The notes under the pieces were generated by a model. That model was not told where the DNA came from. It searched no databases and saw only the letters and a program-made list of their open reading frames with translations. A DNA stretch of 64,000 nt, taken from Eledone cirrhosa. Its lineage: Eukaryota. Below are positions 2,252-10,525 of this stretch, one piece after another (position 1 is the first letter of the stretch; each line of letters starts with the position of its first letter). The translations under genes were made by a program, and so were the position numbers. The stretch is taken from assembly GCA_964016885.1 (NCBI GenBank), contig OZ024740.1:386570001-386634000 (forward strand), given 5' to 3'.

Positions 2252-2984
2252 AAGACCTGACATACATACATACATACATACATACATACATACATACATA
2301 CATACATACATACATACATACATACATACATACATACATACATACACACAATCATACGTATATACACACGTACATACAAACACATACATACACACATATG
2401 TACATGCATACATATGCATGCACAATATTTGAAAAATATACACACACCTCTACATATTCACACACGCAAATAAATATAAGAAAAAATATATATAAAAAAT
2501 AATAAAGACAAAAGTTGACAGCGATACAGGCAACAAATAAATGAAAAAACACACGTGGTAAGCAATACACACAAATGCACGTACACATACATACGTAAAA
2601 ATAAATACATACACACACTCTCACACATAAATATACATATACAAATACATAAGCACATACATACGCATACACAAATACATACACACACACACACACACAC
2701 ACGCGCACACACACACACACACACACACACACACACACACACACACATATATATACACATATACACACACATATACATACACACACATATACATACACAC
2801 ACACACACACACATATATATATATATATATATATATATATATATATATATATATATATGTAAGAGGTGAGTTTTATTGTAGTACAATAAAGCAATGCAGA
2901 TATCGGATAAGAAGCACTCTACAGTTTGTAGGACTGGAGTATACATAATATAAGATCAAAAGATGGTTAAAGGAGTTCCATGTA

Positions 2985-3051
2985 TTTTATTATGCGCATT
3001 TCAAAAACAAACATCATCAAGCAATAATATTTGTGTTTTCATCAGATAAAA
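2985..3051 (-). ncRNA. Hammerhead ribozyme, minimal type I (family A)
   Basis: Minus strand: ttttat-CTGATGA-long stem II (acaaatattatt/gatgatgtttgt)-GAAA-tgcgca palindrome-TA-ataaaa. Confidence 0.85.
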
Positions 3052-3120
3052 CAGGAGAACATGATATGAAGGCTAAAAAACACTTGTGGATAGTGCAGTT
3101 TTAAATCAACATATCTCCTG

Positions 3121-3187
3121 TTTTATCTGATGAAAACACAAATATTATTGCTTGATGATGTTTGTTTTTGAAATGCGCATAATAAAA
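3121..3187 (+). ncRNA. Hammerhead ribozyme (family A), inverted copy
   Basis: ttttat CTGATGA aaacacaaatattattgcttgatgatgtttgttttt GAAA tgcgca TA ataaaa. Confidence 0.85.
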
Positions 3188-3261
3188 TACATGGAACTCC
3201 TTTAACCATCTTTTGATCTTATATATATATATATATATATATATATATATATATATATATA

Positions 3262-3975
3262 TATAATCAGGTTTAGCAAATAATGAAAAAGTTTCAAAAT
3301 AAATTTTAAAAAATTGACTTTGCTTACTATAGTTACCTTTACTGAGTCGGTTTCGAATCTCAAAAATAAACGGAGACCATACGGCCTTCGTTGCAAAGAA
3401 AGATTCTCGTCAGAAGGTTCTTTTCATTCGAAGAATATAAAATTCTTGAATTTAAATTACGAACTAGCGCTACCCAAAACTGTTCCCGAGATGAGAGTAA
3501 ATGAAGTGGAATCAATTTTTTCAAGGGCCGAAGTAAAGATAAAGGCAGAGAGAGGTAGGTCAAACGGCCACCACTATCACTAGCAGCAGTCGGAACGACC
3601 AAATTTTTTTCTCAACATAGAGCAGATTAGTAATAATAGGATATGTGTTCCTACACGCACAAAGCGCTAAGGGACACATGTATTGTCCAACCATATGCCA
3701 ATGTGGTTCAATGGCAGGTTAAGAAATTAACGAGCCAGAACAAATATAATCAGGTTTAGCAAATAATGAAAAAGTTTCAAAATAAATTTTAAAAAATTGA
3801 CTTTACTTACTATAGTAAAATTTATTTTGAAACTTTTTCATTATTTGCTAAACCTGATTATATTTGTTCTGGCTCGTTAATTTCTTAACCTGCCATTGAA
3901 CCACATTGGCATATGGTTGGACAATACATGTGTCCCTTAGCGCTTTGTGCGTGTAGGAACACATATCCTATTATA
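3262..3975 (-). mobile_element. Non-autonomous HHR element with terminal direct repeat and 5' inversion
   Basis: Direct repeat 3262-3333/3745-3816; 3817-3975 is an inverted copy of ~3632-3790; flanked by (TA)n. Confidence 0.75.
3335..3418 (-). ncRNA. Hammerhead ribozyme (family B)
   Basis: Minus strand: acctt-CTGACGA-gaatct...agattc-GAAA-ccgactcag-TA-aaggt; perfect stems I and II. Confidence 0.85.
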
Positions 3976-4263
3976 TATATATATATATATATACACATAC
4001 ATATATACACATACATATATACATACATACATATATACACATACACACACATACATACATAGCCATACAATTATACACATACAAATACGTACATATCACA
4101 AAGACGCACAACCAAATACAAACGCACACACACATATATATATATATATATATATATATATGTGAAGTAATTCCATCGGAAAAGTCCAGGAAAAAAGAGT
4201 GCTCTATGTATGCAACAGAGCTTAATTATTATTATTATGTAATAAACAACATAAGGCAATTAT

Positions 4264-4321
4264 TCCATTTACCAGTGGTTTCTTAAAAGCAAAAGGTTTT
4301 GCTTTCAATCCTCAGAATGAA
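4264..4321 (-). ncRNA. Hammerhead ribozyme (family C)
   Basis: Minus strand: ttcatt-CTGAGGA-ttgaaagcaaaa cc ttttgcttttaa-GAAA-ccactgg-TA-aatgga. Confidence 0.85.
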
Positions 4322-5289
4322 AAATCCTGGTTTGTTTATTGAATATGAATTCTAAAAACAAAAATGCAATCTATATGAAAGTGAGGCTGGAAAAGGGAGA
4401 AGGAAAGGAAAAATAAAATAAAACTACACATGCAAACACACAAAAAAACACAAAAGCATACTTACACACACATACATATATACACATATATATAAATGCA
4501 CGCATACACATATACATATACACACATATATATATATATATATATATATATACATATATATATATATATATATATATATATATATATATATATATATATA
4601 TATATATATATACATATATATATATATAAAGAGCGTACACCTACACACACATACACATATATACACACATATACACATACATATATTCATACATACACAC
4701 ACACACACACACACATATACACACACACACACGCACACACATACACACACACATATATATACACATGTACATATCCATACATATATATATATATATATAT
4801 ATATATATATACATATATACATATATACACATATACATACACACACACACACATGTGTGCGTACAAGCATACACATACACACACACATATATATATACAC
4901 ACACATACATACATTCACACAAACATACAACGTACATACATACACATACATGAATGCACTCCACTACATATTAACACACGCATATAAGAAAAAAAAATAT
5001 AAATATATATTAACAAATTTTTGACAGCGATACATGCCCCAGCTAACAGGACAGACACGCGTGGTAAGTAATACACACATAAGCACATATACATACGTTC
5101 GAAATAGTAAACACATACACACACTCTCACACATAAATATACATATACAAATACATAAACACGTACATACACATACATACACAAACACGTACACGTGTAC
5201 AATATAAACACACACATGTATATGTAATTATATACACACACACACACACACATATATATATATATATATATATATATATATATATATAT

Positions 5290-7502: not shown

Positions 7503-7560
7503 TCCATTCACCAGAGGTTTCTTAAAAGCAAAAAAAGTTTCCTTCAATCTTCAGAATGAA
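7503..7560 (-). ncRNA. Hammerhead ribozyme (family C), GUG cleavage triplet, probably inactive
   Basis: ttcatt-CTGAAGA-stem II-GAAA-cctctgg-TG-aatgga. Confidence 0.65.
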
Positions 7561-7996
7561 AAAAAGGGGGGCCTGGTTTATCCACATATACATACATATA
7601 CACACACAAATATACAAATATATACACACATACAGACACGCACACACACATATATATATATATATACATATATATATATATATATATATACAGACATATA
7701 TACATACATATATATACACATACATATATATACACACATACATACATATATATATATACATACACAAACATATACGTACACATATACATATATACACACA
7801 AAAATACATACACATACACATAGGTATGTGAAGGGCAAAACAAAAAGAATATATGGGGGCTGGGGGGGGGGGGCGGCTAAGAGGAGGTAAAATATAAGGG
7901 GAGGTAAGGGAGAAAAAAATTATAATTATACAAGAGTACAGAAGGTAGAAGCAGCAAAATAAAAACCGTAGCAAAAGTAAAGAGCAGAGAAGGAGT

Positions 7997-8514
7997 TCAA
8001 GGCGGTTGATTTATCGTAGGAGTGTCAATCCAGTTACAGATCAGATGCGATTTCAGATGAGGACAGCATCTGAAGATCTCAGTCTTAGAGTTAAGGCAAG
8101 CGGAAGTGTCTCTCAAGTTTAGCAAAATCCTATACTTTTCTGTGGTACACAAAGAACAATTCTTTGTGCCCTTTGGTACTCCCTCGAAAGGTCTAATATA
8201 GACCAATCAATAGAGTACGGGATATTACTATCCTTGAGATCCCATACCTTACTTGCGAGGGCCGTTGATGTTCGTTTATCTGAGTGTTTAAAAGAAGCGA
8301 CATGTGAGTAAAATCTGGTTTTAAACCTGTCCTGGGTCATACCGACATATCGCTCGCTTCTGGCTGGCTGGTTGTTGATAACTGGCGTTATTTTAGCCTC
8401 ATAAACGACAGATTTTGTGTTACATTTACCCTGCAATGGGCATTCATCCGGCTTCCTGCAACTGCATCCTGGATTTATCCTCGTACGGTTTGAACTGGTG
8501 ATTTTGGACTTCAT
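7997..8514 (-). pseudogene. PLE GIY-YIG endonuclease fragment (frameshifted)
   Basis: CSCRKPDECPLQGKC, VVY...YVG, FKTRFYSH, then CSLCTTEK in a second frame. Confidence 0.9.
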
Positions 8515-9245
8515 GGATATGTGTGTTTACGTATTTATATGTGTGTGTGCGTTTATATTTTTTTATTTTTTTATTTTTATATTTTTGTATGTATATATAT
8601 ATATATATATATATATATATATATATATATATATATATATATATATATGTGTGTGTGTGTGTGTGTATATAATTACATATACATGTGTGTGTTTATATTG
8701 TATACGTGTACGTGTTTGTGTATGTACGTGTTTATGTGTGAGAGTGTGTGTATGTGTTTACTATTTCGAACGTATGTATATGTGCTTATGTGTGTATTAC
8801 TTACCACGCGTGTCTGTCCTGTTAGCTGGGGCATGTATCGCTGTCAAAAATTTGTTAATATATATTTATATATTTTTTTCTTATATGCGTGTGTTAATAT
8901 GTAGTGGAGTGCATTCATGTATGTGTATGTATGTACGTTGTATGTTTGTGTGAATGTATATATGTGTGTGTATATATATGTGTGTGTGTATGTGTATGCT
9001 TGTACACACACATGTGTGTGTGTGTGTGTGTGTGTATGTATATGTGTATATATGTATATATGTATATATATATATATATATATATATAGTAGTAATTGTA
9101 GACAGCAACTCTTTGATTTTCCCGCTTTTACTTCGGTCCAGTTTACATACGGGTCAATTTTACGACCTTTCAGACCTTTATTAGCTGGCAGGAGGTTGTA
9201 TATTTTGTCGTTCCTGGGACGTTTAGCCCTAGGAAGGGAAAATGC

Positions 9246-9324
9246 TTCTCTGATGAGCTTTGGTTTTCCATCATAAATCCATCGGATTTATGAGGTTTTA
9301 CAAAGCGAAACTGATCAGTAAGGG
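9246..9324 (+). ncRNA. Hammerhead ribozyme (family D) inside a ~320 bp insert (9088-9408)
   Basis: ttct-CTGATGA-gctttg...caaagc-GAAA-ctgatcag palindrome-TA-aggg. Confidence 0.85.
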
Positions 9325-9864
9325 CCACTAGAAGAGGTAAATATTTATATTATATTTTTTAATGTATTTTGAAAAATTAATTGAATTTTACTTGTTCTGC
9401 TTATCTTAATATATATATATATATATATATGTATGGATATGTACATGTGTATATATATATATGTGTGTGTGTATGTGTGTGTGTGTGTGTGTATATGTGT
9501 GTGTGTGTGTGTGTGTGTGTGTATGTATGAATATATGTATGTGTATATGTGTGTATATATGTGTGTATATATGTGTATGTGTGTGTAGGTGTACGCTCTT
9601 TATATATATATATATATGTATATATATATATATATATATATATATATATATATATATGTGTGTATATGTATATGTGTATGCGTGCATTTATATATATGTG
9701 TATATATGTATGTGTGTGTAAGTATGCTTTTGTGTTTTTTTTGTGTGTGTTTGCATGTGTAGTTTTATTTTATTTTTCCTTTCCTTCTCCCTTTTCCAGC
9801 CTCACTTTCATATAGATTGCATTTTTGTTTTTAGAATCCATATTCAATAAACAAACCAGGATTT

Positions 9865-9922
9865 TTCATTCTGAGGATTGAAAGCAAAACCTTTTGCTTT
9901 TAAGAAACCACTGGTAAATGGA
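9865..9922 (+). ncRNA. Hammerhead ribozyme (family C), inverted copy
   Basis: Reverse complement of 4264-4321. Confidence 0.85.
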
Positions 9923-10525
9923 ATAATTGCCTTATGTTGTTTATTACATAATAATATATATATATATATATATATATATGTGTGTAAAACTCATTCTTAG
10001 ATAATTCATATGAATCTTATTTAACTCTAAAATACACACACACACACACACACACACACACACACACACACACACACACACACACACACACACACACACA
10101 CACACACACACACACATATATATATATATATATATATATATATATATATATATATATATATATATATATATACACATACACATACACATACATACAGATA
10201 CATACTTACTAACATACACATATATACCTACACACATATATATACATACACATACGTATGCATACGTACACACACACACACACACGCACACACACACACA
10301 CACACACACATATATAACTCAATATATATATATATATATATATATATATATATATATATATATATATATATATATATATATATATATATACTTAGGTTAA
10401 TAGGAGTTAGGTATTGTATACCCGTGTCCCATTAAGGTATTGGCAGCATAATAATTAGCTCTATGCTTTGGAGCAGAGCCGTATATATGATAAACAACAC
10501 AAGAGCGTCTACAACATCAAAAGAT

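What the first reader, a model, noticed from the sequence alone, without database searches (positions are those of the whole stretch)
2352..9950. Tandem ribozyme units built mostly from microsatellite downstream of a PLE endonuclease (family C)
Seen: on the minus strand, GIY-YIG (8514-7997) is followed by HHR 7560-7503. Next comes a ~1.4 kb unit of (CA)/(TA) repeats with short unique islands, then HHR 4321-4264, then a diverged further unit (islands at 4050-4235 and 2352-2640; 2470-2600 resembles 4980-5110). The same islands recur in order at 16860-18355. Inference: the apparent microsatellite is the body of a mobile HHR-delimited unit, so retrotransposition may be spreading microsatellites and thereby new (TA)n landing sites.
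Basis: partly seen in the sequence, partly recalled or inferred. Interest (0 to 1): 0.75.

Follow-up and report, generated by a model that had tools for sequence, protein, structure and literature searches.

The report
Penelope element carrying its own targets
The apparent microsatellite is the 2-kb non-coding tail of a young Penelope-type jumping gene, found in the same order at many unlinked sites and often interrupted there by later insertions, so the element likely seeds new TA landing sites as it spreads; it is not a separate ribozyme-bounded unit, and the inner of its two ribozyme motifs is predicted not to cut.

Summary
Observation largely right, interpretation half right. The islands, both hammerhead (HHR) motifs and the microsatellite between them form the ~1.9-kb 3'UTR (69% alternating TA/TG) of an autonomous Hydra-clade Penelope-like element (710-aa RT+GIY-YIG, ~4.25 kb). 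Order and spacing hold at unlinked loci (48 of 55 inner HHRs on one chromosome have the mid island downstream; 3,638 exact outer-HHR matches genome-wide). There is no independent HHR-to-HHR unit: the inner HHR has G at the cleavage position in 68 of 72 arms, is never terminal, and no circular junction exists. The 'third unit' and 16860-18355 are two arms of one older copy into whose (TA)n the young copy and others inserted. Carried tracts are real landing sites: 29 nested inserts in 97 kb of UTR against 1 in 70 kb of ORF. A rooted tree indicates the inner HHR was gained later, probably as a truncated self-insertion. TE carriage of microsatellites, including by Penelope, is published; this family supplies only an estimated ~0.04% of the genome. 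The scan noted Hydra elements in (TA)n on other DNA of this genome before; no retrieved note describes this UTR.

The parts
8000..8518 (-). 5'-truncated end of the young copy's ORF (CxCx5C linker + GIY-YIG-type endonuclease), one-base deletion near 8171
   Evidence: intact 709-711-aa ORFs in L034, L036, L040, L047, L052
7562..7999 (-). proximal 3'UTR: unique pyrimidine-rich part then first TA/TG block
7502..7561 (-). inner hammerhead HHR1: CUGAAGA core, GAAA, G at position 17 (7509), predicted non-cleaving; ends ~40 nt later at the family's short 3' end followed by TATATA
   Evidence: sequence
7030..7501 (-). 3'UTR, islands and microsatellite up to the central (TA)n tract
5290..7029 (-). nested inserts in the central (TA)n tract: 3' piece of another Hydra-type family with its own HHR (5487-7029) and a SINE-like repeat (5290-5480)
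4323..5290 (-). 3'UTR continued, islands and microsatellite
4263..4322 (-). outer hammerhead HHR2: stem I 7 bp, CUGAGGA, stem II 11 bp, GAAA, palindromic stem III with one-base loop, GUA site (A17 at 4270)
   Evidence: sequence
4162..4262 (-). 3' end with the long 'tail', followed by (TA)n
8515..9956 (+). inverted second arm of the young insertion (HHR2 at 9864-9923, short 3' end), with a nested insert at 9088-9409 in a (TA)n tract
16680..17469 (-). older subfamily copy, minus arm, first piece: UTR start, HHR1 with A17 and U3 (17190-17248), islands b1-b4
10390..16680 (.). nested head-to-head pair of an unrelated Hydra-type element (RT+EN) inside a (TA)n tract of the older copy
9980..10390 (-). 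older copy, second piece (islands b5, i1b), ending in the (TA)n tract hit by the young copy
3972..4130 (-). older copy, third piece (island i2)
2860..3972 (.). nested inserts (palindromic element ends) in a (TA)n tract of the older copy
2352..2855 (-). older copy, fourth piece (islands i5-i7); the arm ends with HHR2 about 1.9 kb left of the window
17470..18355 (+). older copy, plus arm: islands i5-i9, HHR2 with U3 (18201-18260), long tail

Best explanation
This is the microsatellite-rich 3'UTR of a young, autonomous Hydra-clade Penelope-like retrotransposon whose copies end in (TA)n and carry about eight (TA)n tracts of their own, which likely makes each long copy a new set of landing sites for itself and for other TA-targeting elements. 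Shown: 710-aa RT+endonuclease ORF, conserved UTR order at unlinked loci, head-to-head arms with one short and one tailed end, nested inserts concentrated in the UTR tracts. Inferred: a transcript running through the UTR is reverse-transcribed at a nicked (TA)n by the element's own protein, so the UTR is copied along unless the cDNA is 5'-truncated; when a master copy is hit in one of its tracts the insert is inherited by its progeny, which is how the UTR gained the inner HHR (a ~115-nt truncated copy of its own 3' end) and at least one island from another family; the inner HHR then changed A17 to G, is predicted not to cleave, and is decaying; the outer HHR is the ordinary pLTR hammerhead, predicted to work only as a dimer.
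For: ORF and motifs: RWK, DKT, YRDD, CxCx5C, CxxC, CxH (Hydra definition in PMC8557442 section 11). Linkage: 42 uninterrupted stop-to-HHR2 stretches among 45 in loci fetched by the endonuclease, median 1,909 bp, 69% alternating, median 8 (TA)>=6 tracts; 48 of 55 HHR1 on contig C1 have the mid island downstream, median 706 bp, chance 0.0007 each. Ends: 134 of 153 3' ends run into (TA)n, 9-10 of the rest into the next copy's leader; 37 of 40 head-to-head pairs have one short and one long end. Landing sites: 34 nested inserts in ~101 kb of UTR gaps, 27 with (TA)>=4 on at least one side by an automatic call; window left out, 4 vs 0, 12 vs 0 and 13 vs 1 (UTR vs ORF) in three age strata, p 0.10, 0.0004, 0.08. 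History: tree rooted on a sister subfamily puts copies without HHR1 first, then A17, then G17; 0 of 27 old-type internal HHR1 are terminal; island b1 is 76-82% like the 3' end of another TA-flanked family.
Against: No transcript, cleavage or transposition was observed. The order of the earliest tree steps is weakly resolved (support 81 and 95; one HHR1-less copy falls with the HHR1 copies), and HHR1 replaced a ~70-bp segment rather than being a clean insertion. Inserts in the ORF longer than the fetched stretch would look like truncations, which favours the UTR excess; two of three strata are not significant alone; three inserts are SINEs at one short TA site and two sit in (TATG)n. Clade membership rests on motifs and a by-eye match to Hydra-1_Obim, not on a tree; Pfam gave no hit for the full protein. 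Loci for the young subfamily were the best-scoring hits, not a random draw.
Confidence: 0.85

Rival explanations
1. The HHR1-HHR2 stretch is an independent retrozyme-like unit: both ribozymes cut, the 1.4-kb RNA circularises and is reinserted on its own.
For: Two HHR motifs 1.1-1.5 kb apart; older copies have A17 at both (4 of 27); 65 of 72 HHR1 keep CUGAnGA (counted from the table).
Against: G17 in 68 of 72 HHR1 arms (that GUG sites are not cleaved is recalled knowledge, the NUH rule, not confirmed); 0 exact junction matches genome-wide; 0 of 147 first-island hits preceded by HHR2 (redundant loci included); animal retrozyme monomers are 150-450 bp tandem and non-coding (PMC7229834, passages).
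Confidence: 0.04
2. HHR1 is kept as an uncleavable helper: its catalytic half pairs with HHR2's substrate half so that a single transcript can be cut at HHR2 without a second copy.
For: Metazoan PLE hammerheads need dimers (PMC4209133, parts 1-2 of 4 read); HHR1/HHR2 stem III duplex -7.0 vs -8.2 kcal/mol for HHR2/HHR2; along the lineage the free position 7 changed twice while the invariant core did not.
Against: About 9 changes in ~60 nt missing 11 core positions is expected by chance (my estimate p~0.16); a sub-lineage with a broken core spread to four loci and one with a broken stem III to two; HHR cleavage was dispensable for insertion in vitro in another PLE (PMC11167929, parts 1-2 of 4).
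Confidence: 0.1
3. Local duplication or chance: islands and microsatellites are host repeats that happen to flank a PLE fragment.
Against: Same order at loci on many contigs; 369 exact mid-island matches; 257 HHR1 and 3,638 HHR2 matches with 0 in reversed controls.
Confidence: 0.01

Closest known systems
Hydra clade of C-terminal-endonuclease Penelope-like elements, incl. Hydra-1_Obim (Craig et al. 2021, PMC8557442; section 11, passages and supplement rows/excerpts seen)
   Same: RWK, DKT, CxCx5C, CxxC, CxH motifs; (TA)n insertion; HHR near the 3' end with palindromic stem III and one-base loop; tandem pLTR and inverted 5' arms; N-terminus visibly like Hydra-1_Obim
   Different: About 4.25 kb against <3 kb (listed consensi 2,078-2,601 bp); 3'UTR ~2 kb and two-thirds microsatellite; a second, internal HHR
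Penelope and other TEs as carriers of simple repeats in penaeid shrimp (Yuan et al. 2021, PMC7878876; passages)
   Same: Near-identical Penelope copies with syntenic internal SSRs that move with the element and change length afterwards
   Different: The passages seen do not show the carried repeat to be the element's own target, count nested insertions, or trace capture into the master copy
Minimal type I hammerheads in PLE pseudo-LTRs (Cervera and de la Pena 2014, PMC4209133; parts 1-2 of 4)
   Same: Type I motif, long stem II, unstable palindromic stem III, dimer expected
   Different: Here two motifs lie in one UTR on the same strand, the inner one with G17
Animal non-LTR retrozymes (PMC7229834, passages; bioRxiv 10.64898/2026.07.22.740005, part 1 of 5)
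   Same: Type I HHRs bounding a non-coding stretch; proposed origin from PLE pLTRs
   Different: Not tandem, not autonomous of the ORF, 1.4 kb, inner site predicted dead; at most it shows how a two-HHR precursor could arise

Membership tests
Hydra-clade PLE | single ORF with RT and C-terminal GIY-YIG endonuclease | tested here: met
   710 aa; YRDD at 346, VVY 574, YVG 594; 5 of 15 copies with a start codon are intact; Pfam no hit, weak GIY-YIG hits for neighbouring families
Hydra-clade PLE | RWK motif and DKT in place of DKG | tested here: met
   RWK at 37, DKT at 114
Hydra-clade PLE | CxCx5C linker, CxxC and CxH in the endonuclease | tested here: met
   555, 658, 689
Hydra-clade PLE | CCHH motif of other PLE endonucleases absent | tested here: inconclusive
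   C/H positions listed fit the Hydra pattern, but no alignment to CCHH-bearing clades was made
Hydra-clade PLE | canonical HHR near the 3' end | tested here: met
   HHR2 core intact in 130 of 145 arms, A17 in 143; same stem III design as Hydra HHR rows in the supplement; cleavage not tested
Hydra-clade PLE | insertion into (TA)n | tested here: met
   134 of 153 3' ends
Hydra-clade PLE | pLTR tandems, inverted 5' arm, tail at one end | tested here: met
   37 of 40 pairs one short + one long end
Hydra-clade PLE | generally shorter than 3 kb (descriptive, not diagnostic) | tested here: not met
   ~4.25 kb (ATG 3390 to tail end 7524 in L034 plus leader)
Hydra-clade PLE | placement in the Hydra clade of an RT tree | not tested
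   reference proteins were seen only as excerpts
Animal non-LTR retrozyme | non-coding, non-autonomous unit moving apart from an ORF | tested here: not met
   stretch follows the stop codon of the ORF in 42 of 45 stop-anchored cases
Animal non-LTR retrozyme | head-to-tail monomers of 150-450 bp, each with an HHR | tested here: not met
Animal non-LTR retrozyme | cleavable HHR at both ends of the unit | tested here: not met
   G17 in 68 of 72 HHR1 arms; non-cleavage is predicted from the recalled NUH rule
Animal non-LTR retrozyme | linear and circular unit-length RNA | not testable with these tools
   needs RNA data

The most novel reading that the evidence does not exclude
A self-feeding loop builds this genome's microsatellite landscape: several unrelated (TA)n-targeting Penelope families carry their own target inside the transcript, seed it genome-wide, are nested by one another, and recruit the nested ends (including their own ribozyme end, then silenced by A17G) into the next master copy; and the carried tracts are all TG- rather than CA-rich on the RNA strand because (UA)n hairpins are A-to-I edited before reverse transcription, so retrotransposition also manufactures (TG)n from (TA)n.
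Probability: 0.15. Interest if true: 0.8.

Novelty: new variant of a known kind. Interest (0 to 1): 0.45.

Why it matters
It gives a readable, dated series of how a retrotransposon's non-coding tail grows: the element carries the very repeat it inserts into, later inserts land there, and some become inherited parts of the element. One old ~3-kb insertion in this window has swollen to ~20 kb this way. Such tails vanish under low-complexity masking, so element length and microsatellite origin are misjudged in repeat-rich genomes (over 10% of a squid genome is (AT)n, PMC9068888, passage). The natural A17/G17 pair of an internal hammerhead and the TG-on-sense polarity are directly testable. Limit: this family alone adds an estimated 1-3 Mb, far too little to explain the genome's microsatellite load.

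Tried and rejected
Rfam at gathering score and by E-value: no hammerhead listed; single-strand folding does not recover the three-way junction, z about -1.3 to -1.6 for HHR2 types and +0.55 for HHR1. Pfam on the full protein: none. Sequencing runs: no RNA holder listed; no reads were laid, so expression and presence in the second organism stay open. Independent HHR-to-HHR unit: rejected. A surviving short-UTR lineage ending at HHR1: none in 27. My first reading that the older subfamily has U3 cores: only this window's copy does; most have CUGAUGA. A-to-I editing as a general footprint: no A>G excess on the sense strand in unique sequence, the young ORF even shows T>C 17 vs A>G 4; new interruptions in two pure TA tracts were 7 TG vs 2 CA plus two mixed, not significant, and the script stopped after four of six tracts. 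The 'H1 core intact' totals printed are parsing errors; I counted from the table instead. No statement on G17 was found in PMC3088659. Literature searches for a prior description returned none on a (TA)n-targeting PLE that carries its target or an internal captured HHR; only listings were seen for most hits.
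Full report
Setting. The window lies in a 3.0-Gb animal genome (G000, contig C1), probably an octopus (inference from size, repeat content and likeness to Hydra-1_Obim; also said in earlier scan notes).

Observation. Both hammerhead motifs are in the sequence where stated. HHR2 (4322-4263, minus) has a 7-bp stem I, CUGAGGA, an 11-bp stem II, GAAA, a palindromic stem III with a one-base loop and a GUA site. HHR1 (7561-7502) has the same design with a weaker stem II and G at position 17. 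Rfam does not list them. Self-comparison shows that 8515-9956 is an inverted copy of 7130-7029 plus 5290-4230, so the stretch between the HHRs is continuous once 5290-7029 is removed.

What it is. A search with the HHR2 island gave 1,124 candidates, the 40 scored being 99-100% identical on four contigs; the endonuclease piece gave 1,818 candidates, 40 scored. In 40 stretches fetched around such hits (35 chosen by the endonuclease, 5 by HHR2) the islands follow the endonuclease in fixed order (output partly cut). Five of 15 copies with a start codon hold an intact 709-711-aa ORF with RWK, DKT, YRDD, CxCx5C, VVY/YVG, CxxC and CxH, the Hydra diagnostics (PMC8557442 section 11). Of 45 stop-to-HHR2 stretches, 42 are uninterrupted: median 1,909 bp (1,639-2,082), 69% purine-pyrimidine alternating, median 8 tracts of (TA)>=6, HHR1-HHR2 median 1,447 bp. 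Exact 34-mers occur 3,638 times for HHR2, 257 for young HHR1 and 369 for the mid island, with none in reversed controls. On C1, 48 of 55 HHR1 have the mid island downstream on the same strand, 46 within 445-886 bp. Ends are those of a PLE: 77 long and 76 short 3' ends, 134 of 153 running into (TA)n, and 37 of 40 head-to-head pairs with one of each.

The window is a nest. The islands at 2352-2855, 3972-4130, 9980-10390 and 16680-17469 are consecutive pieces of the minus arm of one older-subfamily copy, in the order seen in uninterrupted older copies; its 3' end lies ~1.9 kb left of the window; 17470-18355 is its plus arm (267 of 268 identical). Its (TA)n tracts took another Hydra-type pair (10390-16680), the young copy (4162-9956) and 2860-3972; the young copy was hit at 5290-7029 and 9088-9409. 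About 3 kb (my estimate from uninterrupted copies) has become about 20 kb.

Landing sites. Across the fetched loci (two segmental duplicates dropped) 34 foreign inserts sit in ~101 kb of UTR gaps, 20 with (TA)>=4 on both sides, 7 on one, 7 on neither by an automatic call; one insert was found in 88 kb of ORF. Leaving out the window and stratifying: young 4 in 63 kb vs 0 in 48 kb (p 0.10), older 12 in 17 kb vs 0 in 15 kb (p 0.0004), position-ordered sample 13 in 17 kb vs 1 in 6 kb (p 0.08). Long ORF inserts could be missed as truncations. In the position-ordered sample of 40 clusters 24 of 49 arms hold only the HHR2 end, 10 reach the last island, 15 go further. From this I estimate ~340 microsatellite bases per arm, 1.2 Mb for 3,638 ends (0.04% of the genome; perhaps 2-3 Mb with diverged copies), against 12% alternating sequence in the rest of this window. 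The loop is real but small for this family. Two unrelated Hydra-type families also carry TA/TG blocks in their UTRs at unlinked loci (11 of 14 other loci in full and 2 in part; 6 of 6 read of 12 fetched).

No independent unit. HHR1 has G17 in 68 of 72 arms, HHR2 has A17 in 143 of 145 (sample weighted to young copies). That a GUG site is not cut is recalled knowledge. The junction expected from a circular unit has 0 exact matches; none of 147 first-island hits follows an HHR2 (redundant loci included).

History of the UTR. Older copies come without HHR1, with HHR1-A17 and with HHR1-G17 (4 A17 and 23 G17 among 27 internal HHR1; 3 of the 30 read were HHR2 variants; 70 matches genome-wide). None is terminal. 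HHR1 is a ~115-nt copy of the element's own 3' end that stops at the short end and is flanked by TA, the footprint of a truncated self-insertion, although it replaces a short segment. A tree of 35 endonuclease-region rows rooted on a sister subfamily (~85% identical) gives a ladder: no HHR1, A17, G17, then two changes at the free position 7, then the young family (early nodes weak, young and sister rows subsampled). Island b1 resembles the 3' end of another TA-flanked family at 76-82%. The sister subfamily also has a microsatellite-rich UTR with other islands and no HHR1 within 1.5 kb. Sub-lineages with a broken HHR1 core (four loci) or stem III (two loci) spread, which argues for decay and against a helper role.

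Unexplained. On the sense strand the carried tracts are TG, not CA: 282 vs 22 in the young UTR, alike in the older and sister subfamilies, 67 vs 20 in the second family, visibly the same in the third; isolated interruptions are 103 vs 6 inside the UTR but 56 vs 49 in the target tracts at the ends (internal counts are inherited, not independent). A-to-I editing of (UA)n hairpins before reverse transcription would explain it, and cephalopod editing is directed at repeats (PMC9068888, passages), but unique sequence shows no A>G excess and new interruptions are too few.

Known context. Hydra elements, their (TA)n preference and HHRs are described. Penelope copies carrying syntenic SSRs are described in shrimp. 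PLE hammerheads act weakly and as dimers and were dispensable for insertion in vitro. Seven searches gave no paper on a target-carrying Hydra UTR or a captured internal HHR; the Hydra-1_Obim UTR and octopus repeat libraries were not read.

Verdict. Real feature; new variant of a known kind; interest 0.45.

Noticed in passing
window 10390-16680: Head-to-head pair of an unrelated Hydra-type element with RT (13865-15094) and endonuclease (12650-13396); its UTR has a ~300-bp TA/TG block (12230-12530) conserved at unlinked loci.
   Followed up: partly
window 5487-7029, 2860-3230: Ends of a second Hydra-type family with its own type I HHR (palindromic stem III, 5520-5595 minus); it recurs as a nested insert in this UTR at several other loci (L069, L115, L135, L141).
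   Followed up: partly
window 5290-5480, 16020-16220, 32270-32460: A ~190-bp SINE-like repeat inserted at TA-rich sites with apparent target duplications; three older copies (L103, L104, L108) carry it at the same short TA site, apparently independently.
   Followed up: partly
L047 5516-7570; L231-L236: Sense-strand TG-over-CA polarity of UTR microsatellites in three unrelated Hydra-type families; cause not established.
   Followed up: partly
window 4185-4215 and L034 leader: A short hairpin word in the tail recurs in the 5' leader, in other families' tails and, antisense, in islands of the older and sister subfamilies.
   Followed up: no
L033, L035, L038, L057, L059, L061 near residue 476: Six of 15 full-start copies break frame at one poly-C run; could be slippage or read error.
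   Followed up: no
window 1640-2260, 42089-42595, 45080-45778: A repeat family that inserts in (TATG)n rather than (TA)n, also found nested in this UTR at L102 and L136.
   Followed up: no
window 19399-20752, 22429-25768, 26789-28397, 51395-52622, 59886-63478: Other mobile-element remains by ORF appearance (recalled labels): RTE-like LINEs, a Helitron-like helicase, another Hydra-type endonuclease and a Gypsy-like gag-pol.
   Followed up: no
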